Notes: a model not told the origin generated them from the letters alone. 64,000 bases of DNA from an uncultured virus (IMG/VR IMGVR_UViG_3300031992_000081) (IMGVR_UViG_3300031992_000081); one strand, 5' to 3'. Positions 14,713-29,995 are shown, numbered from the stretch's first letter. Numbers and translations: made by a program.

Positions 14713-14721
14713 ATAGCCTCC

Positions 14722-15009: not shown

Positions 15010-15021
15010 ACCATACCTCCA

Positions 15022-15234: not shown

Positions 15235-15464
15235 TTAACATCGTACAAATTGATGCAACGTATGTACCAGTTAGATGCAAAGATACCATTTCGCTCTAAC
15301 CGTTCTTTATCTTTTCTTTCTTCCTCGTTCTTTGAATTACAGTATCCAACCGCAGCCGAATGCGACTTGAATGCTATTGCTGAGTTTACTTCCCTACGCC
15401 CTAACGAGTTATTGTAATACTCATTTACAGCTAAGAAAATCTCACCTATCTTTTCCATATTCAT
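15231..15464 (-). CDS. hypothetical protein resembling the N-terminus of 9419..9823
   Basis: SAIAFKSHSAA...GIFASNWYI versus PIIAFASKPAA...GIYDIKWWI. Confidence 0.7.
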   Translation of the reverse strand: MNMEKIGEIFLAVNEYYNNSLGRREVNSAIAFKSHSAAVGYCNSKNEEERKDKERLERNGIFASNWYIRCINLYDVK

Positions 15465-15735
15465 TTCCCTCCGGAATATAATATTTCTTAAGATCTAGAT
15501 TGCATAGTCTTAAACTACTTACTAGTTCTTCGTATTTTTCATTCCTTTCTTTATTTGCATCGTATAACCAATTTACAAAGCGCAGCCAATGGCAATTATG
15601 AGCACGATAAAATGATAAAGCCTCATCATTTAACTTCTCAGACGGTTCAGTCCCCGTATAATTAATAAAGTTTTCGTACCAATCGCTATAAAAATCGAAT
15701 AAAACGTAATGCAAATTGTTACTCCACGTTCCCAT
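15442..15735 (-). CDS. hypothetical protein
   Basis: 97 aa, AGGAGG RBS. Confidence 0.7.
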   Translation of the reverse strand: MGTWSNNLHYVLFDFYSDWYENFINYTGTEPSEKLNDEALSFYRAHNCHWLRFVNWLYDANKERNEKYEELVSSLRLCNLDLKKYYIPEGNEYGKDR

Positions 15736-15765
15736 AAATTCGTACCTCCTATTAAAAATATAATT

Positions 15766-15933
15766 TATTTTAGAAACCTTAACGAGATGGCCGGTCGAAA
15801 TCTTTATAAGTGTAAGTATCGTTCAGGCACCACAGATACTTACTGGAGAACAACAAACCATGTTTAGCAATCAATTAGAAAGGAGATGATCAATTATGGT
15901 GAAACCGGCCACCTCACTAAGGCTTCTAAAATA
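15766..15933 (-). ncRNA. putative structured ncRNA, copy 1
   Basis: 30-bp closing stem (15766-15795 / 15904-15933) whose 4 mismatches are all G-U on the minus strand; internal hairpin 15812-15843; covaries with copy 2. Confidence 0.75.
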
Positions 15934-15968
15934 CAAAAAGGTCAAGAGACTAGAATATAATTCCAATC

Positions 15969-16328
15969 TCATAGTTTTTCACCTTTGTCTACATATCTGA
16001 ATTTTCCAAAATATACTTGTTGGGCTAATACAGGATCAAACATTTCTTCAAAGTCGACACAATCATTCTCTAATAGAAACTCGGCTAATTGCCTACACAT
16101 TCTTAATTTAACATTCTTTTTCGCCTCTTCAGGATATAATTCGAGTGCCCATCTATCGATAGCAATCCTTGAAGCAGCAACCTTAATTTTTGGATTCTCG
16201 ACACGTACAATTATTTGCCCCATGTCATCGACTTCCGTGCCACAATAATCGCAATGCCATCTGTAACCGTTTAATATCATAGCAGCACCGCAATTAGGGC
16301 AAGTGTTATGTTTCATCTTTTTCACCAT
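15969..16328 (-). CDS. Zn-ribbon hypothetical protein
   Basis: TCPNCGAA...CDYCGT. Confidence 0.7.
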   Translation of the reverse strand: MVKKMKHNTCPNCGAAMILNGYRWHCDYCGTEVDDMGQIIVRVENPKIKVAASRIAIDRWALELYPEEAKKNVKLRMCRQLAEFLLENDCVDFEEMFDPVLAQQVYFGKFRYVDKGEKL

Positions 16329-16633
16329 CTCCCCCCTGTCTTTTTACTTGATCTGTACATTTCTATGTGCTCTCTTAGAGTATCTTCTCCATAATCATGA
16401 CTGTCAAACCATTCTACCGAATGAATTACATCTTTTAATTGTTTTCTAAGTATGTCTACTTCGGTACGTGCAGATTTAATATATCCTACAAGCCTAAATA
16501 CGTCTTTTGATACATCCTCATATCCTTCTTTCTTTAATATAACAGCCATGTCGGTAAGACTATTTATACTGTCTAACCCAAAAAACTCTTCTGTGTCCTT
16601 ACAATACAAATAATCAAATGAACCACCACTCAT
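16322..16633 (-). CDS. hypothetical phage protein
   Basis: MSGGSFDYLY...HSVEWFDSHDYGED; ATGA coupling. Confidence 0.75.
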   Translation of the reverse strand: MSGGSFDYLYCKDTEEFFGLDSINSLTDMAVILKKEGYEDVSKDVFRLVGYIKSARTEVDILRKQLKDVIHSVEWFDSHDYGEDTLREHIEMYRSSKKTGGRW

Positions 16634-16971
16634 TCTCCTTCACCTTCTTCCCAAAATAGATTGTTCTTAATATTTTCAACCATATTTTTATCTGTAATCG
16701 CATATACTTTATCTGATTCTACCCAGTCAACATATATAATAGGGATCTTTTTTATACCTGCAGAAAATAATGCCTGTTCAACAGCTCCTTTATGTTCTGG
16801 ATTCATAACAAGTACCATATCGGATATAATTCCTTTGTCTCGAAGCTCTTTGTACTTAAGTTCCTCTTCCGCTTTAACTAAACTGTCTATCATTTTTTGC
16901 ATCATTGATTCATTATCAGATTCCAAAGCTTTCTTTGCCTCCTCCTCCTCTGACAGCATTTTATCTCTCAT
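16630..16971 (-). CDS. hypothetical protein
   Basis: Start MRDKML chosen from the RBS; in frame with the track ORF. Confidence 0.65.
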   Translation of the reverse strand: MRDKMLSEEEEAKKALESDNESMMQKMIDSLVKAEEELKYKELRDKGIISDMVLVMNPEHKGAVEQALFSAGIKKIPIIYVDWVESDKVYAITDKNMVENIKNNLFWEEGEGE

Positions 16972-17133
16972 TTTCTTCGCCTTCTTTCTTAATGTTATTG
17001 AACATGCAAAGCAAAATATAAATCCAAGCACAATTACTATCTATCTTAATCTCAGGAGGATCCGTTGATTGAGAAGATGGTCCAAAATACATCATTGGTA
17101 AATCATCATCAGTTCGATCCCTAAATATGAAAC

Positions 17134-17382
17134 TCATTTCTCGTCACCTACTCTCATATTCCATTGGTTAATTGCTTCCAAAGCCCCGTTTGCTTCAATG
17201 GTAACCTCACCTGTACTATCTTGATAAATTTTGCTTGTATATGCTCTTGTTGACGATTTACATTTACCGCATTGAATAGCATAACTATTCTCAATCGTTC
17301 CATTATGGTTAATGCCAGTTGATAGCTGAATAATATTAGCAGTACCACCGCAAAATGGACATTTTTTAATATTATTTTTCAT
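17134..17382 (-). CDS. Lar-like (restriction alleviation) Zn-finger protein
   Basis: KKCPFCGG...IQCGKC...EAINQWNMR matches the Lar-family pattern. Confidence 0.6.
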   Translation of the reverse strand: MKNNIKKCPFCGGTANIIQLSTGINHNGTIENSYAIQCGKCKSSTRAYTSKIYQDSTGEVTIEANGALEAINQWNMRVGDEK

Positions 17383-17594
17383 TCTTTTTTCCTCCTATCA
17401 ACTTTAAATATAACATAATCTTTACTCATGATTTGATCTAGTGTCGTATTTAGCTCTACGAATAAATATGGTTCTTCATCATCGTCTGCTCGCTTTAGAG
17501 TTCCAGATATGTTTTTGTATGCCCTTGCCTTAAGAACGTAAATACTAATGTTAAAACCAACTGAAACACCAGCTATAAAATATAACCAAATCAT
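17379..17594 (-). CDS. small membrane-anchored protein
   Basis: N-terminal TM, then GTL...EPYLFVEL. Confidence 0.7.
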   Translation of the reverse strand: MIWLYFIAGVSVGFNISIYVLKARAYKNISGTLKRADDDEEPYLFVELNTTLDQIMSKDYVIFKVDRRKKE

Positions 17595-17890
17595 TTTTCT
17601 TCACCTTCTTTCTTCATATTCAAATGGCATTCTGGACATTCATCAAATAGTTCAACGGAAAGAGCCTTACAATTCGAACACTCATACAAATCCATAAAAG
17701 GCGCAAATGCAGTTCCGTTTCCATACAGTCCTTTGTGTATCCAAGCTGCCTCACTCACTTTTCTTCACCCTCTTTCATTTTTCGCATAGCACTGCACTTT
17801 GTGCATCTTTGAAACAAAATACCATCTCTTTCAATAACTTTAAAAGAATGATCGCATGAGTACACTTTTGCAAACGCCTTATTTATATCG

Positions 17891-18238
17891 TCAGCTATCC
17901 TTTGATGCTTCGGTGTAAGTTTCATTCTGATCACCTTCTCTCTTACGAATTATTTCAAAGGCTTCTTCTGTTATAGGTACTCCGCAATTTGGACAGAAGT
18001 TAAACTCATAATGCGTTGATGGCTTCGAATATCCACATTTATTGCAGTTAAGTGTTTCAAAGTGTCCATCAAATCCTTCTATCCATTTACCGCGTGGTAT
18101 TTCTATTGTCTTTTCGCTTTTTATAACTCCGATACACCCATTTATTTCTGAAACCCGTTCAGTATTTCCAAAATAATTCGCCGTTTTTATGACTTCTAAT
18201 AAGTGGTCAATTAGTACATCCGCGTCAATCAACCTCAT
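17891..18238 (-). CDS. MRLIDAD-type Zn-ribbon phage protein
   Basis: MRLIDAD...GKWI...CNKCG...FNFCPNCG. Confidence 0.75.
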   Translation of the reverse strand: MRLIDADVLIDHLLEVIKTANYFGNTERVSEINGCIGVIKSEKTIEIPRGKWIEGFDGHFETLNCNKCGYSKPSTHYEFNFCPNCGVPITEEAFEIIRKREGDQNETYTEASKDS

Positions 18239-18244
18239 TTCTCA

Positions 18245-18526
18245 TCACCTTCTTTTCTTATTCAAACGTTCTACTGCTTTTTCTGCCCTGTCTTTATGGA
18301 TATAGATTGACTTGTCACCATACATTGACACTTTATACTTAACCTCTTCGATATATGCCTCGCAATGCTTCTCTCCATTACATCTAGAAGTTCCATATCC
18401 TCCACAATAAGGACAATATGTAGATGTTTCTTCACAGGGTGGAATAACCTCATATACAATAGTACCTACAGGAACAGGAAGTACAATTAACCTATTTTCT
18501 TTTTCAAGCCTTTCATAGTTTCTCAT
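18245..18526 (-). CDS. hypothetical phage protein
   Basis: RLIVLPVPVGTIVYEV...AEKAV, Cys cluster. Confidence 0.7.
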   Translation of the reverse strand: MRNYERLEKENRLIVLPVPVGTIVYEVIPPCEETSTYCPYCGGYGTSRCNGEKHCEAYIEEVKYKVSMYGDKSIYIHKDRAEKAVERLNKKRR

Positions 18527-18686
18527 TTTTCGTCACCTTTTTTCTTTACTGCTTCCATAAAACCGATTTTTGCAAGTATTCCACATTTCTTACATCTCAT
18601 ATTTGTGTGTCCATACTGTTCCCAGTCGTGTTTGCAGTTCCGTTGTTCTCTTTTAGCCAAAGAAGCCAACAAATCAGGGTTTACAA

Positions 18687-19322
18687 TCATCCTTTTTCAC
18701 CTTCTCTCTCTTTACGCAAAGCTTCCCAAGCTGCATCCGCATCTGGATCGTTGAAATACTTAACGATCATAGACAATGGAAGACGATCGTTCGTATACGG
18801 CTTCCACATTAAATGTTCCCACCAACAAGGCTCTCCGTCTTTAGACGTCCAACTAGGACTTTCATACATCTGTCGATAAGGATTGTTCCAACCGTACGTA
18901 TCAATAGTAATACTATCGCCACAACAGTCATGAATACGTACCAACACAGAATCCACTTCAAGTCTCTTAGCGAGCCGGCATAGCCAGTTCATGAATTCTC
19001 TATGAGTTTCATAGAACGTACAGTCACGAAGAGAACCTTTAACAGTAAGTACATATAATGACTGCTTTCTGAGCCACCCAGTTGCCCGATCTTTTTCTCC
19101 GTACCAATCAGTAAGGTTATTGGTTCGGTCACCATACTCATCCGCATTTGATGAAACATTGTGACCTTTTCGCCTATTCACATACACTTCCATATCACCT
19201 TCAGAGCCAATTACTCTAGGCAAATGATTAAGAACTGTTGTTAGAATATAATCTATTTCAGCCTGAGTTCTACCAGGAACATTAACCTCAATAGTACCAG
19301 AAATATAAGTCCAAAAACTCAT
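18687..19322 (-). CDS. hypothetical phage protein
   Basis: MSFWTYISGTI...GSLRD; AAGGAG RBS before 19322. Confidence 0.8.
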   Translation of the reverse strand: MSFWTYISGTIEVNVPGRTQAEIDYILTTVLNHLPRVIGSEGDMEVYVNRRKGHNVSSNADEYGDRTNNLTDWYGEKDRATGWLRKQSLYVLTVKGSLRDCTFYETHREFMNWLCRLAKRLEVDSVLVRIHDCCGDSITIDTYGWNNPYRQMYESPSWTSKDGEPCWWEHLMWKPYTNDRLPLSMIVKYFNDPDADAAWEALRKEREGEKG

Positions 19323-19336
19323 AGTATCACTCTCCT

Positions 19337-19687
19337 TTACCAAGCTTTTGTATCTTTGTCTATCACGTCCGTATCTACTATTTTAGCAAGAATACCATCA
19401 TCAGGTAACACAGTAAACTGCATGTTAAACTCGTGCGTAGCAGGACTGCTCATCATATATACAGGCTCATTATCACAATATGCTACACTAGTATCCGGAC
19501 TACCAACTGTGTATTGAGCACTTTGCAAACGCACTTTCATTCGTCTTATGATATTACCATCTTTGACTTTTATCCAAAACGGCTCTTTTAAATCTATGCA
19601 TGCGAAGTCGTAGAATAAAGTGCCACAATAAGGACACTTTTCTTCCGTTATCGCAGCACCACATTGCGGACATGTTTCACGTTCCAT
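19337..19687 (-). CDS. Zn-ribbon hypothetical protein
   Basis: TCPQCGAA...CPYCGT. Confidence 0.75.
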   Translation of the reverse strand: MERETCPQCGAAITEEKCPYCGTLFYDFACIDLKEPFWIKVKDGNIIRRMKVRLQSAQYTVGSPDTSVAYCDNEPVYMMSSPATHEFNMQFTVLPDDGILAKIVDTDVIDKDTKAW

Positions 19688-20361
19688 TATTTCTTTACCT
19701 CCATCATACTAACCGAATAATCAAAATATAATTTCTTGTTACGTTCACAGTACTCAGGATCATTTACACATTTATTACCATGCTTTGAAATGAGGTACTC
19801 TTTATCGTCTTTTATCATCTTAACAGACAGAGCTTCTTTTTCATTTCCATGATATTCGCATACTCCTATAACGGTTGTATAATCGTCATAAATCTTACTT
19901 GTTATATGAATCTCAGTATTACTAGCAAGTTTCTGCGATGAAATATAATCCACAGGACGATGTTCCGTTCGACATACAACAAGAACCTTTTGTTTTGGAA
20001 TTGTGGGCGGATCATTTGGCTTTTCGGTTTCTTGTACCGCAGGTTTTACCGTTAGCATAAAGTCGCTATTTGACCATCCACCATGTCCATGTATCTTAGT
20101 TATTGTTGCTGATAGCCAATCCGGATCTCCAACTTGTGATTTAATTTCACCGTGCGAGTATTCGACCGTGTATTTCTTATCCGGTGTTAGTTTATCTACA
20201 TCTCTTACATCTATAGTACCCCATTCACCGGATGCTTCTTTTAGAATAAAATCAATAAACTCTTGCACTGTAATGTCTTGTCTATTCAAACGAATATTAT
20301 ACACTCGTGTGCAGTCTCCAGCTTCTGGTCCGTACGTAACAAGAATATCATCCTTTTTCAT
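19687..20361 (-). CDS. hypothetical two-domain protein
   Basis: 224 aa; GHGGWSNSDF motif and a Pro-rich linker. Confidence 0.75.
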   Translation of the reverse strand: MKKDDILVTYGPEAGDCTRVYNIRLNRQDITVQEFIDFILKEASGEWGTIDVRDVDKLTPDKKYTVEYSHGEIKSQVGDPDWLSATITKIHGHGGWSNSDFMLTVKPAVQETEKPNDPPTIPKQKVLVVCRTEHRPVDYISSQKLASNTEIHITSKIYDDYTTVIGVCEYHGNEKEALSVKMIKDDKEYLISKHGNKCVNDPEYCERNKKLYFDYSVSMMEVKK

Positions 20362-20384
20362 TTATCTTATCTCACTTTCTGCGT

Positions 20385-21143
20385 CTATTTTATGTAACGT
20401 GGCTGAATTGTAAATACTACTCCTAAGAATGGTTTATTGTTATCAAGATCTCCTCTAAATGTAACATTTGGAGTGCCATCAAGTTCATAATCCCAACCCC
20501 AATTATCTAATGCTTTATTATCGGTTTCAACACCTTGGAAGCTATACCATTCAGCGACGCTTGCTTGTGCGTTAGTTATAACCGAATTCTTTACTTTTCG
20601 TATGAAGAAATTATTAAAATCTAATGTTGAAGTCATTATTTTGGTTGCATTTGATACGAAAACCGGTCCGCTTTTGTCCTCGTTAAATCCTGGAGACACA
20701 ACTTTACATAAAAAATCGCCATCTCCAAGGACTACAGACGGAGGAATTTCCTTAGGAAAGTTCTGTTGGATTAATTTTTGATACAAATCTTCCTCCTTTT
20801 TCTGTCCAATTTCTCTTCGTATGACGTCTCTGTAGGCGTTTGCAGTCATTGTTACACCCAACATACCGTCCGTAGCAAATTTAATCGCTTCCTGAGACCC
20901 CGTATAACATTCTGTAATTCCGAATATTGTGCCTGTTAATATAATCAAAGGTGGCACATAATACGGTATTCCTATCTTAAATTTTTCCCAAGCAGTTAAA
21001 TCTGTGAAGCTTGGATCCTGCTGTTGCCGTACTTGACGAACTTCATTAATCTTATCGCTAGCTAGTTTGGTACTAACTCCTACCGCTATGGTAGAAAGTA
21101 TAGCACCAAAACCAACTATAACGTGCATAGTTGACAGTTTCAT
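20385..21143 (-). CDS. membrane-anchored hypothetical protein; paralog-like to 6456..7448
   Basis: Two hydrophobic segments, YVPP, REIGQKKEEDLY, WGWD, QPRY. Confidence 0.75.
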   Translation of the reverse strand: MKLSTMHVIVGFGAILSTIAVGVSTKLASDKINEVRQVRQQQDPSFTDLTAWEKFKIGIPYYVPPLIILTGTIFGITECYTGSQEAIKFATDGMLGVTMTANAYRDVIRREIGQKKEEDLYQKLIQQNFPKEIPPSVVLGDGDFLCKVVSPGFNEDKSGPVFVSNATKIMTSTLDFNNFFIRKVKNSVITNAQASVAEWYSFQGVETDNKALDNWGWDYELDGTPNVTFRGDLDNNKPFLGVVFTIQPRYIK

Positions 21144-21479
21144 TCTTTATGTTCCTCAGCTTTCATACAGTGTTGATTAAAATACGTATCTTCGTAAAAG
21201 TAAGGACAATTTTTCCCATTGCATTCACCAAAATCCGTTTTTATTTCTTTTTCTCCATCATCCGATTCTGTTGATCGAATTACCTTCTTGAATGGGCATA
21301 CTGTGATCATAGTACATTAATCCTCGCTTTATCGTCTTTTGTTTTATCCTTTTCTTTTTCCTTGCCTAAAAACAGAACTATCTTAAGGATAACATACCAT
21401 CGTATAATGCATGTTAGCAAGTATACTGATGAAAATATAATTGATGCTAATACAACATCAGGCATAAATCATCACCTCC

Positions 21480-22562
21480 TTAATCATCGATGTAACCATA
21501 TTCCTTAGCCAGATCATACATCCAATCACCTTCTTTTGCTTCACGCAGACGATTGACGAATATATTAAGGGTCGAGTGAGGGATGCTAAGAACTGTGGCT
21601 ATCGCGTTCCAACTCATCCCATCTTTTCTGGCCTCAAACATCTCGCGGACAAGTTCTGGAGTGAACCGGTCTTCACTTTTAACAAGCTTACGAGAAACAA
21701 GACCAAATTCACGTTTAATAAGCCAAATAGTACTTCTGCTAACATTGAATTCTTTGCTAATTTCATCTTCTGTTTTTCCTGCTTTAATCGCGGTTATGAT
21801 TTCTCCTTTCGTGTCGCTATCAAGCCTATTAAACCCGGTAAATGGTCTTCTCTTTTTATACGGTTTTGCGTCTGAGAAGATATCACCATACATCTTGTTC
21901 CAACGAATATATTTCGTATTATCGCCAAGTACTTCTTTCGGACGTCGAACTTTATACAAGAAACTGGCATACTGCTTTCCTGTCAGTTTAAGTTCAGTAC
22001 AAATCTGCCTTTTGTTATAACCTTTCTTGATGAGATCGACAATCTTCTCGACAATATAATCGTCCCATACAATGCGTTCACGTTTCTTATCATTATAAGG
22101 ATCCCATTTGCGAATGATTGGCTCATTCTTAGGCTCCTCAGAATCAAGATCATCGTCTTCCTCAGATTCGTTGAAATCGATCTCTTCGAATTCCATCTCA
22201 TCCGGATCAGGTCCTTTTACATGCCAGGATCCTGTTGGGATTGTATCTTCATCCTCCGGCAGTTTCTTATACAGATTCAAATCTGGTTTCTCATCTTCCG
22301 GCGGTCTCTCGTTCTTCTCCATCATTTTAGGCAGAATATAATCCTCGCCTTCAATGATAGATTTAACAAGATCCATGCACTTGTCACAGAGATAGAAAGA
22401 ATCCCAAATAGCATTATGGTCAAGGCTAAGAACACGATATCTTTCATTAAGCGGAGCTGCTGTGAGTTTAACATTCGCTGCTCCAACATACGTAACATCA
22501 TCCACTATTGTTTCACATCCGCATCTGTTGCAGACCAACACCTTTTTACAAATAACTGACAT
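21480..22562 (-). CDS. Zn finger + acidic linker + three HTH repeats (putative regulator)
   Basis: CNRCG...LCDKC; KGYNKRQICTELKLT, AGKTEDEISKEFNVSRSTI, DGMSWNAIATVLSIPHSTL. Confidence 0.7.
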   Translation of the reverse strand: MSVICKKVLVCNRCGCETIVDDVTYVGAANVKLTAAPLNERYRVLSLDHNAIWDSFYLCDKCMDLVKSIIEGEDYILPKMMEKNERPPEDEKPDLNLYKKLPEDEDTIPTGSWHVKGPDPDEMEFEEIDFNESEEDDDLDSEEPKNEPIIRKWDPYNDKKRERIVWDDYIVEKIVDLIKKGYNKRQICTELKLTGKQYASFLYKVRRPKEVLGDNTKYIRWNKMYGDIFSDAKPYKKRRPFTGFNRLDSDTKGEIITAIKAGKTEDEISKEFNVSRSTIWLIKREFGLVSRKLVKSEDRFTPELVREMFEARKDGMSWNAIATVLSIPHSTLNIFVNRLREAKEGDWMYDLAKEYGYIDD

Positions 22563-22734
22563 ATTATCACACTCCTAACAAAAATATAATTATTTACTTT
22601 GTTCATCCATCGGCTTGTAGTTAATTGGGGTATGAGACTCTTCCCCATCTCTAGCTGGAGTATACAAGCACTCGTTGCAAGGATCTTCATCTTGCGGTAC
22701 ATTTCTATGCTGACAAGTCTTGCACATTCTAAAG

Positions 22735-23226
22735 TCAACCAGTTTGCTCAGTCCTTTTGTCATATCCATACACCTCCTTTATTTTTTCATCATGATAGAT
22801 CGTTTTGTAAACGTAATCATATGCAAGAGATCCGCATACAATTCCCGTTCCGATAGCTCCGAACAATGCCATGCTTTTAATCGGATATGGATTGCACATG
22901 ATAATGCCTTCAGATGCAATAACGATAGCAACCATTATAGCACTTGCAAAAAGAGTTGCTTTTCCTCGTCTCTTAACATCATTCCAGCATTCAGAGCCCA
23001 TATAGTGCTTAAGAGACTCTAAACTAAACTTAACAGTTATATTATAGGCTCTGTTATCGTCTCCTACTCTTGTGACTGTATAGCCGTCAATAAGAACCTT
23101 TTTAAGGAACTTAATTGCGAACTTGATAGCACTTTCCTCGTCTGCAGCATAGTCACTAAATTCTGTTAAAGCGTCTGCTACAACCTCGTTTAAAATGTCT
23201 TCGTTAAATACCTGTTTCATGATCAT
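22735..23226 (-). CDS. membrane protein (2 TM)
   Basis: Two hydrophobic helices in the C-terminal half. Confidence 0.7.
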   Translation of the reverse strand: MIMKQVFNEDILNEVVADALTEFSDYAADEESAIKFAIKFLKKVLIDGYTVTRVGDDNRAYNITVKFSLESLKHYMGSECWNDVKRRGKATLFASAIMVAIVIASEGIIMCNPYPIKSMALFGAIGTGIVCGSLAYDYVYKTIYHDEKIKEVYGYDKRTEQTG

Positions 23227-23232
23227 TCTCCT

Positions 23233-23460
23233 TTACTTTATTTGATCTTTCTCGTACTGTTCTTCTTTATTTGTTCCATCGACTTCATCATCAATGTACA
23301 TCTTAGCTTCTGCCTCGCTATCCCTTCTGGCAACTACAATTGACCTAATACTATTAAGCCCTCTGGAATTTGCCGGAAGATACTTTCGAACCTGATAACA
23401 GTTCTCGTAAGCACTCCACTGAATATAATAACCACGATATGACTTGCTCATGATAATCAC
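23233..23460 (-). CDS. hypothetical protein
   Basis: 75-aa ORF in the operon. Confidence 0.65.
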   Translation of the reverse strand: MIIMSKSYRGYYIQWSAYENCYQVRKYLPANSRGLNSIRSIVVARRDSEAEAKMYIDDEVDGTNKEEQYEKDQIK

Positions 23461-23924
23461 TTCCTTTCATCATTATCTTTAAGCCACTCATTATACAAAT
23501 AATACTTGCATACTTCACTTCCTTCCAAGATTAAGAAATTCCAAATATACTTCTCATTACTGACTACTTCACGATATTGAGCAACAATCTCACGTTCCAT
23601 CAATGGAGTATACTTAGTCAAATATACTCGTTCGTCAACAGCTCCATCACTAGCTACCAAATACTGATCACACAAATTACGAAGCGTTGTATCATCGTGC
23701 ATCTTTTCATTCTCGAAATGTTCTTTTAGCAGCTTACGCATGACTTTCATTTGCTTTTCGTCCTTTTTCTTCCTCTTTTCAGATTCGGCTTTTAATTGCT
23801 CATCAACGTTCGTAGCAAATTTGTCATCAAGCTTACCAAGACGACCCATGTACCAGAATCCTGATTTCATTCCAATTTTAACCATCTCTCCTGGATGTTT
23901 CTTAATATAATCTTTAAGTATCAT
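23457..23924 (-). CDS. hypothetical protein
   Basis: 155-aa ORF, ATGA coupling. Confidence 0.75.
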   Translation of the reverse strand: MILKDYIKKHPGEMVKIGMKSGFWYMGRLGKLDDKFATNVDEQLKAESEKRKKKDEKQMKVMRKLLKEHFENEKMHDDTTLRNLCDQYLVASDGAVDERVYLTKYTPLMEREIVAQYREVVSNEKYIWNFLILEGSEVCKYYLYNEWLKDNDERK

Positions 23925-24115
23925 TTTTTCGTCTGCTCCTTATACTTTTTTACCAGTTCACAATCAGGGTCTATTAAATTCTGATAAACAATATAATCGT
24001 CTATATCACCCTCTTTAAACGAACAAAAGTAAGAATCGTCAAATTCATGATGAAGAAATGAACAACTTGCACAACATGATGGGACTATTATGTCTACTTT
24101 AACTACGTCACACAT
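23921..24115 (-). CDS. small Cys-rich protein
   Basis: PSCCASCSF...PDCEL. Confidence 0.65.
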   Translation of the reverse strand: MCDVVKVDIIVPSCCASCSFLHHEFDDSYFCSFKEGDIDDYIVYQNLIDPDCELVKKYKEQTKK

Positions 24116-24127
24116 ATTCTTTCTCCC

Positions 24128-24427
24128 TCATAATACATCCTCCACTTTGATTTCTGTTTTATTAAGATCCATATTAACATTGTTAATTATGATGTCGATT
24201 ACTCTATCCCATAGGACGGGATTGTATACAGGATCATCACGAAGCAATAGAGGTTTTAAAACCATAGAAAAACGCATTTTATCGTACTTGCAATTTTTCC
24301 ATATCTGTGCCAGAATGACTCGCATTTCATGGTTCTTTTTGTCGCACCAAATTGCGTTTATTTCAACGATTGCTTTTTCTGTTGCCATCTCAATAACAGC
24401 ATTGTATATTTCATCTGACTCTCTCAT
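24128..24427 (-). CDS. hypothetical protein
   Basis: 99 aa, AAGGAG RBS. Confidence 0.7.
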   Translation of the reverse strand: MRESDEIYNAVIEMATEKAIVEINAIWCDKKNHEMRVILAQIWKNCKYDKMRFSMVLKPLLLRDDPVYNPVLWDRVIDIIINNVNMDLNKTEIKVEDVL

Positions 24428-24452
24428 ATCAAAACTCCTTTATATTGATATA

Positions 24453-24496
24453 GAAAAAGATCAAGAGACCAGATATTTCTATCTAGTCTCTCTTTC
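24453..24496 (-). terminator. intrinsic terminator, family A (AGAGACTAGA..TCTGGTCTCTTGATCTTTT)
   Basis: Near-identical to hairpins at 29070-29111 and 29291-29333. Confidence 0.75.
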
Positions 24497-24511
24497 TTAG
24501 ATTTTTTCCTG

Positions 24512-24829
24512 TCAGCCCTTATTTTTTTCTCTATGGGCTCTTTCAGAAATCTTGTCTGGGAGATCTGTCGCGCTCACAACGCAACCGCCGACCAGCCAAA
24601 GCAGCCAAGATCCGACTCTCATTACAATCTCACCTCTTGTTCGATCCTTTTGCAGCTGTTTTTCATATTCAGCACGCAAACGGGCTTGCTCAAGAGTGTT
24701 AAGATTCTTAACCTCCTCAGTTTGTCTATCTTGTTCTCCTTTTGCTTCGATCTCAGCGATTCTAAACTCGTGTTCGATCTCCTTAATAGATCGGATTTCA
24801 TCAAAATTTAATCCGTTATACTCTGACAT
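24512..24829 (-). CDS. coiled-coil protein with C-terminal TM
   Basis: 105 aa, AGGAGGTG RBS. Confidence 0.75.
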   Translation of the reverse strand: MSEYNGLNFDEIRSIKEIEHEFRIAEIEAKGEQDRQTEEVKNLNTLEQARLRAEYEKQLQKDRTRGEIVMRVGSWLLWLVGGCVVSATDLPDKISERAHREKNKG

Positions 24830-24848
24830 AGGTTTTCACCTCCTTTCA

Positions 24849-25079
24849 TTAAGTTACCGGATTCTCGTGCGAATCATCCATTTGTGTTTTGTTCCAGAAT
24901 ATAATAGCATCTCTTTCGCTGGTTTTGGTTTGAATGCTAACAGGATCTGGACAGCCATCTGTAGCACACCATATCTGGTAATGTATGGTACCACATTCTC
25001 CGTCTTTAAATCTAAACAAATGAGGCGGTTTTCCGCAAGCCTTACATGGTAGTGCTTTTATGATATCATCGTTATCCAT
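24849..25079 (-). CDS. Lar-like Zn-finger protein
   Basis: LPCKACG...IWCATDGC...DAIIFWNK. Confidence 0.55.
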   Translation of the reverse strand: MDNDDIIKALPCKACGKPPHLFRFKDGECGTIHYQIWCATDGCPDPVSIQTKTSERDAIIFWNKTQMDDSHENPVT

Positions 25080-25093
25080 GAAATATAATCCTC

Positions 25094-25279
25094 CTACATT
25101 ACCTTATTCCATTCTTTTACGGCAGATTCGTATCCAACAAAGGATATAATAGCCGGTTGATTGCAATTTTTATTTGGACAATAAATCTTCGTCATATTAT
25201 CGTCCTCGTACTTTTTTCTGAATCTGAGCTCTCGCTTAACGTTTGGTGTGGCTCCACATTTACATTTTTTAATTTCCAT
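25094..25279 (-). CDS. Lar-like Zn-finger protein
   Basis: KKCKCG...IYCPNKNC...SAVKEWNK. Confidence 0.55.
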   Translation of the reverse strand: MEIKKCKCGATPNVKRELRFRKKYEDDNMTKIYCPNKNCNQPAIISFVGYESAVKEWNKVM

Positions 25280-25305
25280 GATTAAAATCCTCCCTTAAAT
25301 ATAAT

Positions 25306-25662
25306 TTATCCCCAATCAACAAACTTGGGATAATCATCGTCGTACATTTCCGCAAGCCCTTTATATTCAGTCAGCGGATTATAGGTTGTTTCATAGCAGT
25401 ATGGCTCTGGCATAATCGTGTTATTAATATCGATCACGTATAAGTCAAACCACTCTCGAAACTCGTCAGCTAAAAATATAATTGTTTTTTCAAACATGAA
25501 CTCTGAGCTTGGGTCTTCTTCATTAAAGATTTTATGATGATCTAACAGATATCGAATTGATAAAAGATCTTTATATTGATCCTTATTCAAATATCCGTAA
25601 AACTTACCGAGTTCTATACCTCTATCGTCTCCCATGTATCTAATCGTAGGTCGGTATCCCAT
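25306..25662 (-). CDS. hypothetical protein
   Basis: MGYRPT after AGGAGG; ELGKFYGY motif. Confidence 0.7.
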   Translation of the reverse strand: MGYRPTIRYMGDDRGIELGKFYGYLNKDQYKDLLSIRYLLDHHKIFNEEDPSSEFMFEKTIIFLADEFREWFDLYVIDINNTIMPEPYCYETTYNPLTEYKGLAEMYDDDYPKFVDWG

Positions 25663-25663
25663 A

Positions 25664-25942
25664 TTAGTCCTCCTTTTTACAATATTCTTTAACATTACGA
25701 ATTTCTACCTCCTCAACCTGTCTCCACTCAGGAAGAGAAAATATAATTGGAGATGTAAGTCCATACACTATTGCATAGGATTTCTTTAGAAATTCTTTGT
25801 AAAGATCCTCATTATTAAGCGTTTTCCATGCGTGAATGCATATGTCTCTGAAATCGTTCTTATCTTCACTGTTCCATCGATCGTTAACCATAGAAATGAT
25901 ATTTTCTATGGATTTTTTAATTGTTTCTTCTGTATATGACAT
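25664..25942 (-). CDS. hypothetical protein
   Basis: 92 aa, AGGAG RBS. Confidence 0.7.
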   Translation of the reverse strand: MSYTEETIKKSIENIISMVNDRWNSEDKNDFRDICIHAWKTLNNEDLYKEFLKKSYAIVYGLTSPIIFSLPEWRQVEEVEIRNVKEYCKKED

Positions 25943-25971
25943 ATTATATCACACTCCTAACTTAAATATAA

Positions 25972-26160
25972 TTAGTCTTCAACCCAAACAGTCATTGTCA
26001 TATGCGGGTAGATCTTGTAATCGTGCCTACAAGGTTTACCGTCTTTATCAAGAATTGTTGTAGCGCCTTCTGTTTCTCGTCTAAATACTCGTTTGTCTCT
26101 TACTCGATTCAGTTTAAATTCATCTCCCGGATTTAAATTGTAATACTTAACTGCTCTCAT
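25972..26160 (-). CDS. small hypothetical protein
   Basis: 62 aa, AGGAGG RBS. Confidence 0.65.
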   Translation of the reverse strand: MRAVKYYNLNPGDEFKLNRVRDKRVFRRETEGATTILDKDGKPCRHDYKIYPHMTMTVWVED

Positions 26161-26324
26161 TGTTATCCTCCTTCATCTGATCCAATCGTTTTACGAACTG
26201 TTCTTTAAGACTGAGAGCAGCAGATGCAGTTGCCAAGGCTTCGATTTCTTTAATATCATTAGTCTTCGACATCATGTTAATAATGATAATCTGCGCTTCT
26301 CTATCAGTCATGTATTACACCTCC

Positions 26325-26606
26325 TCATGCATGATGGATTTTACCGTCGACTACGTACGTAACAGTTTCGATACCATCGTATTCATTAATCTCCCAATCT
26401 GTAGTCTCATCCGAGATTTCTTCAATGACAAGAGCTGCGTATCTTCCACTGCATTTCTCAGATCCGTATGTTTCAATAAGATCAATAAGCTTCTCATCGT
26501 TTCTCAAAAATGGGACATCGTAATCATATGGACGACAACCAAGCTTTTCGCATGCAAAATCACTAAGAGCGAAACCACCATATTCCTTATTAAGTACAAT
26601 TTTCAT
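26325..26606 (-). CDS. hypothetical phage protein
   Basis: MKIVLNKEYGGFALS...WEINEYDGIE; AGGAGG RBS. Confidence 0.75.
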   Translation of the reverse strand: MKIVLNKEYGGFALSDFACEKLGCRPYDYDVPFLRNDEKLIDLIETYGSEKCSGRYAALVIEEISDETTDWEINEYDGIETVTYVVDGKIHHA

Positions 26607-26625
26607 GTATTATACCTCCTTCAAC

Positions 26626-27150
26626 TTAATAATTTCTAGACCAGTCATACTTAATATCGTAATTAAATTCAATACGATCACACTTTTTATTAAAATCATG
26701 GTTAAGATGTATTTCTATTCGTGGGCATTCCTTCTTAAAATTAAAATACTGATCTAAGTGAAACCATCCGACATTTTTTGGATCTTCGGGTCCAAATTCA
26801 GATATTATGGATTCTTTTTTAATTTTTGCCCATTCAAATCCAACTGAATAAAGAGAATCATAAACGTCCAAAATTGTAATATCCCGTTCTTGCAACTCTT
26901 TATTTAATTTATCTTCTACGCGTCGCAATAAACAATAATCGTAATTGCTAAGTGCCGGTCTAATACGAATTGCAAATTTTGATTCCAATGTCGGTTCAAA
27001 CCCTTCACAATCATCGCTACCGCATTCATAATTTGTAAGAGCCGCAGCAAAATATTCGCAGCTAGCCGTGCTGTCATTATTGCTATCTTCGTAAAGTTCA
27101 TCGTCTTCGTAGTGTACACAAAAATGTCTACAATCTTCGCAACAAATCAT
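26626..27150 (-). CDS. Cys-rich hypothetical protein
   Basis: CCEDCRHFC N-terminus; 174 aa. Confidence 0.7.
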   Translation of the reverse strand: MICCEDCRHFCVHYEDDELYEDSNNDSTASCEYFAAALTNYECGSDDCEGFEPTLESKFAIRIRPALSNYDYCLLRRVEDKLNKELQERDITILDVYDSLYSVGFEWAKIKKESIISEFGPEDPKNVGWFHLDQYFNFKKECPRIEIHLNHDFNKKCDRIEFNYDIKYDWSRNY

Positions 27151-27153
27151 ACG

Positions 27154-27354
27154 TTAAACCTCCTCAACAACATCCATCTTAACAATCCTAAGGATTACCT
27201 TCTCATGAGCTGTAAGGTTAACATACTCGTCAGTATCCTTAAGAATCTTAACTTTTTCTTTAGCTGAATCCAAAGTAGCATGAAAGCTAATAATATCACA
27301 TTCATTATACTCCGGATTGTTAAAATTGAAATACTCACTAATTACGGCATACAT
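27154..27354 (-). CDS. small hypothetical protein
   Basis: 66 aa, AGGAGG RBS. Confidence 0.65.
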   Translation of the reverse strand: MYAVISEYFNFNNPEYNECDIISFHATLDSAKEKVKILKDTDEYVNLTAHEKVILRIVKMDVVEEV

Positions 27355-27356
27355 AG

Positions 27357-27695
27357 TTTTATTCCTCCTTCATTTTAGGCTCGCCTAAATACTCGTTTAA
27401 AGCATCGCGTGCTTTTTTTAAATATTCACATACATCTTTGTCCTTTGATATGCTCATTTCTGTGAGAACAAAATATCTAAAAGATGCTTTACCCTCTCGG
27501 TTTATATGTGTTTTTAATGAAATTTTTATTGTTTTTCCACACGGTCGATCCACAAATTCTCTTTTAAGAATTCTGCCACGCCCATAATACTTGCTGCTGT
27601 TCTTCAGTTCTTGAATTCGGTTCTCGATTTCCTTTTTCTGAAGTATCAATTTTTCTAATTCAGTCATATTTTTATTCCTCCTTCATTTTAGGCTC
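27357..27695. repeat. 26-bp perfect direct repeat bracketing one gene
   Basis: TTTTATTCCTCCTTCATTTTAGGCTC at 27357-27382 and 27670-27695. Confidence 0.85.
27359..27667 (-). CDS. hypothetical protein
   Basis: 102 aa; ends GEPKMKEE like the neighbouring gene. Confidence 0.7.
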   Translation of the reverse strand: MTELEKLILQKKEIENRIQELKNSSKYYGRGRILKREFVDRPCGKTIKISLKTHINREGKASFRYFVLTEMSISKDKDVCEYLKKARDALNEYLGEPKMKEE

Positions 27696-27998
27696 ACCAT
27701 AAGCCTTAATTACACGTTCTATAACATCATCCGCGGTTAGCCACCCTTTAACCAAATCGCCATCTTCCTCTTCATTCACGATCTCATCGCCCATTATCTC
27801 GAGAAGACCTTGCTCAAAACCATATGAAAAAGAGTGCCAAACTGCATCCCACAATAGTTCATCATCCTTGTCATATATAATTACTTGATACCAAGGAGAA
27901 AAAGAATAATGCGGATGGTGATCAAACTTTTCAATATCCCATCCATAAAAATCCTTGTGCTCCATCAGCCAATCGTATAACTTATTAATTTCATCCAT
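27672..27998 (-). CDS. hypothetical phage protein
   Basis: SYGFEQGLLEIMG...GWLTADDV. Confidence 0.75.
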   Translation of the reverse strand: MDEINKLYDWLMEHKDFYGWDIEKFDHHPHYSFSPWYQVIIYDKDDELLWDAVWHSFSYGFEQGLLEIMGDEIVNEEEDGDLVKGWLTADDVIERVIKAYGEPKMKEE

Positions 27999-28015
27999 AA
28001 TATCACACTCCTTAC

Positions 28016-28444
28016 TTAAAATCTGCCTTTCTTAAAATTTGTAAATGCGTAATTTAGTGCCATAACAAGCCAAAGAACTGTAGAAACCAGATATATTATA
28101 CTAAATATAATTCTCACCGGTTCTATCCATAGTATTGCGTTAATTGGCAAAATAAACTGAGAAGCTGCACAAATAACGGTATGTGTTGTATTAACGCCTT
28201 TATAATCTATCTCAAAATTTTCATAGATTTTGTTAACTATCTCAGTATTTGACTCAAGATCTGTTTCCGGATGCTCCTTTTTACGCCTGACACTAGCAAG
28301 TATTGTGTATGCAAATGTGAAACAAAAAAGAGCTGCGAATATCATACTTAATAAACGCAGTCCAATAAGTTCACTAACCGCTAATGCAAAAAAGAATGAT
28401 CCTGTCAAAAGATTCTCGAATTGATCCCTGTTTTCTTCACTCAT
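28016..28444 (-). CDS. multi-pass membrane protein (about 4 TM)
   Basis: Four hydrophobic segments. Confidence 0.75.
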   Translation of the reverse strand: MSEENRDQFENLLTGSFFFALAVSELIGLRLLSMIFAALFCFTFAYTILASVRRKKEHPETDLESNTEIVNKIYENFEIDYKGVNTTHTVICAASQFILPINAILWIEPVRIIFSIIYLVSTVLWLVMALNYAFTNFKKGRF

Positions 28445-28457
28445 CGTATTGTCCTCC

Positions 28458-28709
28458 TTAGTTTACGATTTCTTTAAGAACTTCAATTGGTATTTCAAAA
28501 TTGATAAGTGCCCATCCATGCCTATTAAAATAACGGGAATTCAGATAGGCTTCAATTGCATCGCTTGTTCCGTATCGTATAGCGTTTTTAATTAACGATT
28601 TTGGAACACGAGTCTTTTGAATTCTCTTTTTCCATGGAACCGTAAATTTAAGAACGATATAAAACGGGTTCTTTGTTATCACTTTTCCTTCAAATTCTGT
28701 TCTTACCAT
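28458..28709 (-). CDS. hypothetical protein
   Basis: 83 aa, AGGAG RBS. Confidence 0.7.
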   Translation of the reverse strand: MVRTEFEGKVITKNPFYIVLKFTVPWKKRIQKTRVPKSLIKNAIRYGTSDAIEAYLNSRYFNRHGWALINFEIPIEVLKEIVN

Positions 28710-28746
28710 AGTTTCACTCTCCTAACAAAAATATAATTTTATTTGA

Positions 28747-28824
28747 TGGTGGAACATCAGGGATTCGAACCCTGGACCGCCTGTTTATGAGACAGGTGCT
28801 GCTAACCTGCTGAGCTAATGTTCC
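28747..28824 (-). tRNA. tRNA with CAT anticodon (Ile2 or elongator Met)
   Basis: GGAACAT...ATGTTCC-A-CCA acceptor, CCTGT-CTCATAA-ACAGG anticodon arm, CAGGG-TTCGAAT-CCCTG T arm. Paired 1-72 and no 3 G-C anticodon pairs, so not initiator. Confidence 0.9.
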
Positions 28825-28832
28825 ATAAATGC

Positions 28833-28909
28833 TGGTGGAGTATATCGGATTTGAACCGATACTCTATAGATTTTAAGTCTACTGCCTCTGCCAATTGGGC
28901 TAATACTCC
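28833..28909 (-). tRNA. tRNA-Leu(TAA) with short variable loop
   Basis: GGAGTAT...ATACTCC-A-CCA, GTAGA-CTTAAAA-TCTAT, variable region AGAGT, ATCGG-TTCAAAT-CCGAT. Confidence 0.88.
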
Positions 28910-28917
28910 AAATATAA

Positions 28918-29063
28918 TATTCTAAAGACCTTAATGAGATGATCGACGTACGTAGCAAGTGCGAAAGCTCAGAAAAAACACATGCTACTGATGATGATAA
29001 AACAATGAATAAACACCTAAAAAGGGAGGATTTGTCGATCACCTCATTAAAGCCTTTAAAATA
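28918..29063 (-). ncRNA. putative structured ncRNA, copy 2
   Basis: 30-bp closing stem (28918-28947 / 29034-29063), 4 mismatches all G-U on the minus strand; internal hairpin 28952-28988; directly upstream of the tRNAs. Confidence 0.75.
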
Positions 29064-29069
29064 TAACAC

Positions 29070-29111
29070 AAAAAGATCAAGAGACCAGATTTTATTTCTA
29101 GTCTCTTTTTT
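29070..29111 (-). terminator. intrinsic terminator, family A
   Basis: AAGAGACTAGA..TCTGGTCTCTT hairpin + U-tract. Confidence 0.75.
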
Positions 29112-29135
29112 ATTAAATTTTCTTAGATCTCATGT

Positions 29136-29240
29136 TCACTTCATCCTTTTGAACATATTGACTATTTTTGTGATAACCCAAGCGCAGCAAGCCACGCCAA
29201 TAAGGTCAAAAAACAAATCGAAAAATATTGCAGTAAACAT
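29136..29240 (-). CDS. 34-aa hydrophobic peptide (cassette gene)
   Basis: MFTAIFFDLFFDLIGVACCAWVITKIVNMFKRMK, AAGGAGG RBS, between promoter and terminator. Confidence 0.65.
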   Translation of the reverse strand: MFTAIFFDLFFDLIGVACCAWVITKIVNMFKRMK

Positions 29241-29350
29241 AAAGTTACCTCCTTAAAATTTATTCTATATAATGATTAACTTTTCACGCGAAAAAAGATC
29301 AAGAGACCAGATATCTCTATCTAGTCTCTTTTTCATAGATTTTTAGTTTT

Positions 29351-29587
29351 TTACTTGATTTCTTCGGGGATGTAATTTCCCTTAGTTTCGTCTCTAATAA
29401 TCACCGTTTCATTGAAAACAACTGGAATGTGAATCCAGGTTTCCAGGTCTCTTGTACAGTCTTCACACAGTCTATAACTCCGGGTATTGTTCCCGATAGT
29501 TATACCATTGATTCTGAACATGGAGACCATCTCTCCACATTTCTCACATCTCATTTTCCCGAAATTTTTAATTACGTTAGGCATCAT
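29351..29587 (-). CDS. Zn-finger small protein (cassette gene)
   Basis: CEKCG...LCEDC; GGAGG RBS. Confidence 0.7.
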   Translation of the reverse strand: MMPNVIKNFGKMRCEKCGEMVSMFRINGITIGNNTRSYRLCEDCTRDLETWIHIPVVFNETVIIRDETKGNYIPEEIK

Positions 29588-29703
29588 CTCTAAAATCCTC
29601 CTGAAATATAATAATTTTAAAGCATCTCTGCTTCATATAATGACGTGTTTTTCACGCGAAAAAAATCAAGAGATCAGATTTTCATCTGAATCTCCGATTT
29701 TTG

Positions 29704-29904: not shown

Positions 29905-29995
29905 AAAAACCTCCTATTTGTTTAATCGTTCTCATATAGAGAATAGGAGTTAACGCGAAAAAAAATAAAGAGGCCGGACTTTCGTCCGTAACCTC

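What the first reader, a model, noticed from the sequence alone, without database searches (positions are those of the whole stretch)
15766..29063. Two paralogous structured ncRNAs 13 kb apart, with a covarying 30-bp closing stem (15766-15933 and 28918-29063)
Seen: each locus is a gene-free gap closed by a 30-nt inverted repeat. The minus-strand 5' arms are TATTTTAGAAGCCTTAGTGAGGTGGCCGGT and TATTTTAAAGGCTTTAATGAGGTGATCGAC (22/30 identical). Six differences (positions 8, 10, 25, 26, 29, 30) are fully compensated in the partner arm. All 8 arm-to-arm mismatches are G-U on the minus strand, two at the same positions (11, 22) in both copies. Inside, both have a 9-10 bp hairpin followed by the spacing TACTG-N14-ATG (plus strand), and both sit just downstream of a family-A terminator hairpin (degenerate at copy 1). 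Copy 2 is directly upstream of the tRNAs. Inference: a phage RNA family with a conserved scaffold, possibly an RNase III or protein-binding stem, and a variable loop, i.e. an sRNA or guide-like system. I do not recognise it as a named family.
Basis: partly seen in the sequence, partly recalled or inferred. Interest (0 to 1): 0.9.

Follow-up and report, generated by a model that had tools for sequence, protein, structure and literature searches.

The report
Phage leader RNA with ribosome-mimic loop
Two copies of a long-stemmed RNA hairpin in this gut phage belong to an undescribed class of phage messenger-RNA leaders that display a copy of the ribosome's own mRNA-docking sequence, probably to control how the genes behind them are processed and translated.

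Summary
Both loci (15766-15933, 28918-29063) fold on the minus (coding) strand into a 30-bp helix. All 8 non-Watson-Crick positions are G·U on that strand, and 6 differences between the copies are compensated. No Rfam family matches.

Each enclosed domain exposes a CUCC(U/C)UUU motif identical to the 3' end of 16S rRNA (anti-Shine-Dalgarno). The same architecture also recurs in related phages: 43 of 80 terminase-linked viral contigs, six near-complete relatives (one copy each) and cultured Lactococcus phages 1706/P092/P118/P078.

In these relatives it usually sits between the cos end and the first late gene, right before a ribosome-binding site. The stem covaries strongly there, with 133 G·U on the coding strand against 13 on the other.

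Best reading: a cis-acting operon-leader RNA whose helix is an RNase III substrate and whose loop masks or competes for Shine-Dalgarno sequences. That mechanism is inferred, not shown.

A sequence profile does not link c1/c2 to the wider class; the link rests on shared architecture and the motif. No transcript evidence was obtained.

The parts
15766..15933 (-). Element c1: a 30-bp closing helix enclosing a 108-nt domain
15904..15933 (-). c1 5' arm (minus-strand sense)
15766..15795 (-). c1 3' arm. The SD of the next gene follows 15 nt later in the minus sense
15877..15885 (-). c1 anti-SD motif CUCCUUUCU, in the 13-nt loop of a small hairpin (GAUCA/UGAUU)
15811..15845 (-). c1 inner hairpin (9-11 bp)
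15935..15966 (-). Degenerate family-A terminator-like hairpin immediately 5' of c1 (approximate outer limit)
15442..15735 (-). First gene after c1 (97 aa, no family), with an AGGAGG ribosome-binding site
28918..29063 (-). Element c2: a 30-bp closing helix enclosing an 86-nt domain
29034..29063 (-). c2 5' arm (minus-strand sense)
28918..28947 (-). c2 3' arm, ending 8 nt before tRNA-Leu
29019..29030 (-). c2 anti-SD-like motif UCCUCCCUUUUU (a degenerate form of the class motif)
28952..28988 (-). c2 inner hairpin
29079..29107 (-). Family-A terminator-like hairpin immediately 5' of c2
28747..28909 (-). tRNA-Leu(UAA) and tRNA-Met(CAU), directly 3' of c2

Best explanation
c1 and c2 are two copies of a cis-acting leader RNA made as part of the phage's minus-strand polycistronic transcripts.

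Shown: a 30-bp helix tolerant of G·U only on the coding strand; compensatory change between the copies; an enclosed domain that presents a 16S-3'-end-like CUCC(U/C)UUU motif in unpaired form; and a position at the head of a gene block, directly before a ribosome-binding site (c1) or a tRNA pair (c2).

The same architecture is found in related cos-type siphoviruses. There it is usually single-copy, between the cos end and the first late gene.

Inferred: a 30-bp perfect duplex is a substrate for host RNase III, so the helix is cut. This separates the downstream message or tRNA precursor from upstream RNA and leaves the strong ribosome-binding site close to the new 5' end.

More weakly inferred: before cleavage, the exposed anti-SD pairs with the downstream Shine-Dalgarno sequence and damps translation. 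Cleavage releases that mask.
For: Structure and strand:
- Folds z -6.7 and -9.7.
- 8 of 8 non-WC pairs are G·U on the minus strand.
- 6 compensated pairs between the copies.

Wider class:
- My stem scan of 88 sequences (910,611 bases) found 47 long stems on the coding strand in 43 of 80 TerL loci plus the window. The 12 hits on the other strand were the same elements. L001-L007 were dropped before this count.
- In 36 unique elements the arms hold 908 WC, 133 G·U on the coding strand, 13 A·C and 46 other pairs.
- In 18 relatives (window excluded), 91.2% of cells are paired against 67.2% in shuffles, 25 of 26 pairs change on both sides, 0 of 500 shuffles reach this, and slid controls give 37-51%.

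Loop motif:
- CTCCTTT is in 30 of 36 loops, against 0 on the opposite strand and a shuffle mean of 0.66.
- The motif is unpaired with P 0.79 against 0.51 for the rest of the loop, over 32 elements.

Position:
- An SD-like sequence lies within 20 nt of the 3' arm in most elements.
- There is one strong element per near-complete relative, 6 of 6. Four of the 6 lie beside the cos-like motif.

Conservation:
- In a related strain's contig the c1-like element has 4 changed letters plus 6 gaps in 176, while the adjoining gene piece has 23 changes in 346.

Cultured phages 1706, P092, P118 and P078 carry such a stem with CCUCCUU/UCUCCUU loops.

That RNase III cuts duplexes of about two helical turns is established knowledge, recalled here and not tested.
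Against: - No transcript, 5'-end or cleavage evidence was obtained.
- A terminator-like hairpin lies directly upstream of both copies. No copy of the window's TTCGCG-N17-TATNAN promoter motif lies between them, so expression needs read-through or an unseen promoter.
- c2 is followed by tRNAs, not an SD-led gene, which does not fit SD masking.
- Loop-to-downstream complementarity is no better in cis than between unrelated elements: mean -27.1 vs -26.6 kcal/mol, and 2358 of 10,000 permutations do as well.
- A sequence profile of 18 relatives finds nothing in the window at E<=10, and pairwise similarity of c1/c2 to other elements is weak (z <= 4.5). Membership of c1/c2 in the wider class rests on architecture and the motif.
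- The stem scan selected for pairing, so paired fractions are inflated. Only the strand asymmetry and the controls are free of that bias.
- In Arthrobacter phage Tribby the 3 G·U lie on the other strand.
Confidence: 0.5

Rival explanations
1. Trans-acting small RNA. The domain, excised by RNase III or otherwise stable, uses its exposed anti-SD as a seed to bind Shine-Dalgarno regions of host or phage mRNAs and reprogram translation. This is closest to the first reader's sRNA idea.
For: The motif is exposed and often sits in an apical loop. It stays CUCCUUU even where the downstream SD is the GAGGTG type, and cis pairing is no better than trans. c2 has no downstream SD to mask.
Against: The tight, conserved position right before a ribosome-binding site argues for cis action. 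No extended complementarity to any other site was found in the window. An 8-nt anti-SD would hit the phage's own strong SDs as well. No evidence of a stable small RNA was obtained.
Confidence: 0.2
2. Processive antitermination or rRNA-operon mimic. A leader-trailer-like helix with a 16S-3'-end-like sequence, and a U-tract/A-tract mid-stem reminiscent of boxA, makes RNA polymerase resistant to terminators across the long operon that follows, as with lambda nut, HK022 put or rrn leaders.
For: The element sits at the head of long operons: the first late gene in relatives, and long gene arrays after c1 and c2. c2 is followed by tRNAs, as a 16S trailer is. The window uses many terminators. The boxA resemblance is recalled, not tested.
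Against: The boxA-like stretch is base-paired, not single-stranded. The nearest terminator is upstream of the element, not downstream. There is no match to any Rfam family. No Nus-like or Q/N-like gene was recognised nearby.
Confidence: 0.1
3. DNA-level element: a packaging (cosB-like) site, a single-strand DNA hairpin near the genome end, or a mobile or recombination-prone inverted-repeat cassette at module boundaries.
For: About half of the unique elements lie 25-95 nt from a conserved cos-like end motif (my reading of the upstream sequences printed). In related strains a c1-like element adjoins a different gene, with the two genes and the tRNAs absent. The terminator and the element were duplicated together.
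Against: The 133:13 excess of G·U over A·C on one strand is not expected for a duplex-DNA site. Loops of 39-171 nt do not favour cruciforms. c1, c2 and several relatives' elements are far from any cos motif. All copies have one orientation relative to the genes, and I saw no target-site duplication in the flanks.
Confidence: 0.08
4. The loop motif is simply the ribosome-binding site of a small gene on the opposite strand, as annotated in Arthrobacter phage Tribby (gp2).
For: GAAAGGAG followed by ATG at 5-10 nt occurs on the opposite strand in 16 of 36 elements, often at exactly 7 nt. Tribby gp2 starts this way, and there the G·U pairs lie on that strand. In c1 and c2 the frames agree across the arm.
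Against: 20 of 36 elements have no such start. The ORFs are 2-46 aa with no shared peptide. G·U pairs favour the other strand 133:13. In cos-adjacent copies such an ORF would run into the genome end.
Confidence: 0.07

Closest known systems
RNase III processing hairpins of phage polycistronic mRNAs (T7 R-sites; Bacillus phage SP82 early-mRNA sites); recalled, not compared by sequence here
   Same: Paralogous long hairpins on the coding strand in intercistronic gaps, just upstream of ribosome-binding sites, in several copies per genome.
   Different: Here the helix is a near-perfect 24-37 bp that closes a 39-171-nt domain rather than a simple hairpin. The domain carries a conserved anti-SD motif. 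Cleavage is not shown.
Leader-trailer (RNase III) helix flanking 16S rRNA in rrn operons
   Same: A long-range helix enclosing an RNA that bears CCUCCUUUCU. tRNAs follow directly (c2).
   Different: The enclosed RNA is about 100 nt, not 16S. No rRNA homology beyond the motif was shown. The motif's position within the loop varies.
Phage P1 c4 / P4 CI antisense RNAs (recalled)
   Same: A small RNA processed out of the leader of the operon it controls, acting on a ribosome-binding region downstream.
   Different: Those RNAs are processed by RNase P and have specific extended target sites. Here only a generic 8-nt anti-SD is conserved, and cis-specific pairing was not detected.
PeSL 'promoter-early stem-loop' cassettes of T4-type phages (recalled)
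   Same: Repeated regulatory cassettes at gene-module boundaries. The window has 7-8 terminator-plus-promoter cassettes at 29.3-31.5 kb, and the terminator and element were duplicated together.
   Different: c1 and c2 carry a large structured RNA in the place where the other cassettes carry the promoter.

Membership tests
Any Rfam 15 family | cmscan score at or above the gathering threshold | tested here: not met
   In the window only the two tRNAs pass. E-value scans of both loci give only sub-threshold long-hairpin miRNA models. There are 0 hits in 16 related loci.
RNase III processing site | At least about 20 bp of duplex RNA on the transcribed strand | tested here: met
   A 30/30-pair helix with G·U only on the coding strand.
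RNase III processing site | Cleavage by RNase III in vivo or in vitro | not testable with these tools
   No end-mapping data. RNA-run contigs did not cover the loci.
Long-stem anti-SD leader class of cos-type siphoviruses (defined here) | 24-37-bp covarying closing helix with G·U on the coding strand | tested here: met
   c1 and c2. The class.
Long-stem anti-SD leader class of cos-type siphoviruses (defined here) | Exposed CUCC(U/C)UUU in the enclosed domain | tested here: met
   c1 has CUCCUUUCU in a hairpin loop. c2 has the degenerate CCUCCCUUUUU.
Long-stem anti-SD leader class of cos-type siphoviruses (defined here) | Detectable sequence homology to other members | tested here: not met
   An nhmmer profile of 18 relatives gives no hit in the window at E<=10. 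Pairwise z <= 4.5. MAFFT aligns the loop motif but not the arms in register. A covariance model could not be built.
MITE / inverted-repeat transposon | Terminal inverted repeats with a target-site duplication, and copies in either orientation | tested here: not met
   No duplication is seen in the flanks. All copies share one orientation. Mismatches are strand-asymmetric.
Retron msr-msd RNA | Adjacent reverse transcriptase gene | tested here: not met
   No RT domain in 76 ORFs of the region scanned against Pfam.
Type I toxin-antitoxin or small-ORF locus | Conserved small ORF | tested here: not met
   Opposite-strand ORFs are 2-46 aa with no shared peptide, and 20 of 36 elements lack a start.
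rrn / lambda-type antitermination leader | Single-stranded boxA and associated Nus-dependent read-through | tested here: inconclusive
   The U-tract/A-tract motif is conserved but base-paired. No reference boxA was compared.

The most novel reading that the evidence does not exclude
A widespread phage RNA that mimics the 3' tail of 16S rRNA. It is cut out of operon leaders by RNase III and accumulates late in infection as a Shine-Dalgarno sponge, retuning which messages the ribosome can initiate on. This could mean host shut-off or timing of phage gene classes.
Probability: 0.15. Interest if true: 0.85.

Novelty: new variant of a known kind. Interest (0 to 1): 0.68.

Why it matters
This is a conserved structured RNA class, absent from Rfam, that sits at the entry to major operons in a large clade of siphoviruses of Gram-positive bacteria. 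The clade includes gut and rumen phages and cultured dairy phages. That would add a post-transcriptional control point to phage gene expression that genome annotation currently ignores.

The invariant 16S-3'-end mimic is unusual. It suggests either built-in masking of ribosome-binding sites that is relieved by processing, or competition with the ribosome for Shine-Dalgarno sequences.

Lactococcus phages 1706, P092, P118 and P078 carry the element and grow on a genetically tractable host, so the hypotheses can be tested directly.

The element also marks the cos-proximal start of the late operon. That makes it a practical landmark for orienting metagenomic phage contigs.

Tried and rejected
- **Public RNA runs.** Contigs of two metatranscriptome runs (X3, X4) laid on 14501-30500 cover many genes at low depth but neither element. 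No conclusion on expression is drawn.
- **Exact-pattern scans for the arms.** Viral contigs gave 0. Metagenome contigs gave one chance match without a partner arm. The three closest polymerase relatives gave 0 at up to 3 mismatches.
- **Protein-anchored searches** with two neighbouring genes found no relatives in viral contigs.
- **blastn of c1 against the phage collection:** no match.
- **Covariance model.** Smaller alignments put the arms in two registers, so no model was built. An nhmmer profile was used instead and did not link the window to the class.
- **Cis-specific loop-to-SD complementarity:** no signal.
- **Trans targets in the window** for the c1 and c2 loop sequences: none at up to 3 mismatches.
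- **Hammerhead reading of CUGAUGA in c2 (plus strand).** Rejected: c1 has CUGGAGA, there is no stem II/GAAA arrangement, and there is no Rfam hit.
- **Lactococcus phage sk1.** It has a homologous-looking cos end but no such stem.
- **Literature.** Three full-text searches, and passages of PMC8040213, PMC5737381 and PMC6316719, gave no description of this element. Their supplements were not read.
Full report
**Context.** The window is a phage contig with every sizeable gene on the minus strand. The DNA primase/polymerase is at 1152-5102, the tape-measure protein at 46424-54346, a capsid-protease fusion at 58215-60566 and the portal at 60517-61788. No whole genome is held for it. It has no near relative among deposited phages: the polymerase is below 60% identical to any record. 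The best-holding sequencing runs are labelled sheep gut metagenome. Between the lysis genes (holin 32476-32826) and the polymerase lie about 70 small ORFs, almost all without a family.

All four non-Watson-Crick positions in each copy are G·U on the minus strand: c1 at 11, 17, 18, 22 and c2 at 5, 11, 13, 22.
- Between the copies, 6 pairs changed on both sides and stayed paired, and 4 changed on one side through G·U.
- Both loci fold far better than shuffles, with z -6.7 and -9.7.
- The arm pattern occurs nowhere else in the window.
- In the direction of transcription each copy follows a terminator-like hairpin of a repeated family. It precedes either a ribosome-binding site (c1) or tRNA-Leu and tRNA-Met, which start 8 nt after the c2 3' arm.
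- No Rfam family matches.

On the minus strand c1 carries GAUCAUCUCCUUUCUAAU. The CUCCUUUCU is displayed in the loop of a small hairpin. c2 carries UCCUCCCUUUUU. This is the sequence of the 3' end of 16S rRNA (recalled). Equivalently, it is the complement of a strong Shine-Dalgarno site on the plus strand.

**Relatives.**
- Pattern scans and two neighbour-protein searches found nothing.
- The polymerase found three viral contigs at 63-73% identity.
- A G·U-tolerant stem scan of my own found an element in the 49-kb relative. It has a 30-nt arm beginning UAUUUUUAGAGGCUUA and a 120-nt loop with three CUCCU motifs. It lies on the coding strand directly before the first gene upstream of the large terminase, about 125 nt from the contig end.
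- Using that terminase I fetched 80 loci.
- Long stems (arms of at least 24 nt, at most 2 unpaired positions) occur on the coding strand in 43 of the 80. With the two in the window this makes 47 elements, 36 of them unique. The 12 hits on the other strand are the same elements with few G·U pairs.

**RNA-level evidence across the class.**
- Arms of the 36 unique elements hold 908 Watson-Crick pairs, 133 G·U on the coding strand, 13 A·C (which would be G·U on the other strand) and 46 other mismatches.
- The scan selected for pairing, but it treated both strands alike. The asymmetry therefore stands.
- In a MAFFT alignment of 18 relatives without the window copies, a 26-pair stem is 91.2% paired against 67.2% in shuffles and 37-51% when slid. 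25 of 26 pairs change on both sides, and 0 of 500 shuffles reach the observed values.

**The loop motif.**
- It is the only invariant block of that alignment.
- CTCCTTT is in 30 of 36 loops, never on the opposite strand, against 0.66 expected.
- It is predicted to be unpaired: 0.79 against 0.51 for the rest of the loop.

**Position.**
- Each of six near-complete relatives has exactly one strong element. Four of the six lie beside a conserved motif (AATTCTCCGGGGG) and two lie 1.7 kb from it.
- Many contigs begin at that motif. The deposited genomes of Lactococcus phages 1706 and sk1 begin with a similar sequence, so I read it as the left cos end. This is an inference.
- An SD-like site usually follows the 3' arm within 20 nt.
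- Other elements follow a terminator or the end of a gene instead. The common denominator is the start of a translated block, not cos.
- The window has no cos-like motif. Its region upstream of the terminase genes lies outside the window, so a third copy cannot be excluded.

**Cultured phages.**
- Lactococcus phage 1706 has an imperfect stem of about 35 bp at roughly 30-180. Its loop motifs are GUCCUCCUU, UUCUCCUUU and ACUCCCUC, and it lies ahead of orf1.
- P092, P118 and P078 share the stem, with some compensatory changes.
- Arthrobacter phage Tribby has 37-40-nt arms around CACUCCUUUCAAGAG. There the three G·U pairs lie on the other strand, and an annotated leftward gene starts in the loop.
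- Faecalibacterium phage FP_oengus has only a weak candidate, and sk1 has none.

**How firmly do c1 and c2 belong to the class?** Less firmly than the architecture suggests.
- A sequence profile of the 18 relatives finds nothing in the window.
- Pairwise scores against other elements reach z 4.5 at best, while c1 against c2 gives z 11.3.
- MAFFT aligns their loop motif with the class but not their arms in register.
- A covariance model could not be built.
- The link rests on four shared features: a coding-strand G·U helix of the same size, a U-tract/A-tract mid-stem with UAUUUUAG...CUAAAAUA ends like the closest relatives, the exposed anti-SD, and placement before a translated block, all in syntenic related phages.

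**Mechanism.** No RNase III, dsRNA-binding or reverse-transcriptase gene is nearby. The region 29.3-31.5 kb holds 7-8 cassettes of terminator plus TTCGCG-N17-TATNAN, each driving one small gene. c1 and c2 have the terminator but carry the structured element where the promoter would be. They are therefore reached by read-through or from a promoter I cannot see.

A 30-bp duplex should be cut by host RNase III (established knowledge). This would define the 5' end of the downstream message or tRNA precursor and free the anti-SD domain.

Whether the anti-SD masks the downstream SD in cis or acts in trans is open:
- Cis complementarity is no better than trans.
- The motif does not track GAGGTG-type downstream sites.
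- c2 has no SD behind it.
- On the other side, the tight placement before ribosome-binding sites argues for cis action.

**Opposite-strand ORF reading.** It has some support: an ATG lies 5-10 nt after the SD in 16 of 36 elements. But there is no conserved peptide.

**Variation in related strains.** Contigs from two other gut runs join a c1-like element directly to position 28017-28020. They lack the two genes and the tRNAs found there in the window. The element is better conserved than the adjoining gene piece. The elements thus sit at boundaries where gene content changes.

**Novelty.** No Rfam match. Three full-text searches and passages of three papers gave no description of it. Supplements were not read. 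Here the motif is conserved across 30 of 36 unique elements.

Noticed in passing
window 29265-31531 (minus strand): Seven to eight repeated cassettes: a terminator hairpin with a T-run, immediately followed by TTCGCG-N17-TATNAN and a strong RBS. Each drives one small gene. This looks like an immediate-early region with a phage-specific -35 (TTCGCG).
   Followed up: partly
window 29139-29243 (minus strand): An unannotatable 34-aa hydrophobic peptide gene (MFTAIFFDLFFDLIGVACCAWVITKIVNMFKRMK) with a perfect RBS, bracketed by two family-A terminators just upstream of c2.
   Followed up: no
window 28700-28918; joints 28017/15756 and 28020/15768: The tRNA-Leu/tRNA-Met pair is flanked by near-repeats of ATTATATTT. 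Related strains in two other runs lack the tRNAs and the two genes 28016-28709, and have a c1-like element directly next to gene 27672-27998.
   Followed up: partly
L011, L013, L016, L018, L036, L053, L077, L082 (starts); L008, L022, L026, L027, L041, L045, L046, L056, L073 (internal): Many viral contigs begin at, or contain, a conserved sequence C(C)T-AAAAATTCTCCGGGGGATATTTT, preceded where internal by ...ATCGCCGGCCTCC. Lactococcus phages 1706 and sk1 start with a similar sequence, so it is probably the cos site of this terminase clade.
   Followed up: partly
L055:1712-1943 and 3704-3809: One contig carries three long G·U-containing stems. Two abut each other, and only the first has the CUCCUUU motif.
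   Followed up: no
L113 (Arthrobacter phage Tribby) 372-702: The annotated leftward gene gp2 (372-569) starts inside the loop of a 37-40-bp inverted repeat and reads through one arm. Either the gene call is spurious, or this actinophage uses the element on the other strand.
   Followed up: partly
window 6456-7448 and 20385-21143: Two DUF6353 paralogues 13 kb apart. There is also a Lar-like restriction-alleviation protein at 17134-17382 and many small zinc-ribbon proteins.
   Followed up: no
L003:9831-9991: Nested perfect inverted repeats of AAATCTGACATATGACA just upstream of the primase/polymerase gene of a related contig.
   Followed up: no
window 24454-24490 (minus strand): A further clean family-A terminator is followed directly by an RBS, with neither a promoter cassette nor a structured element.
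   Followed up: no
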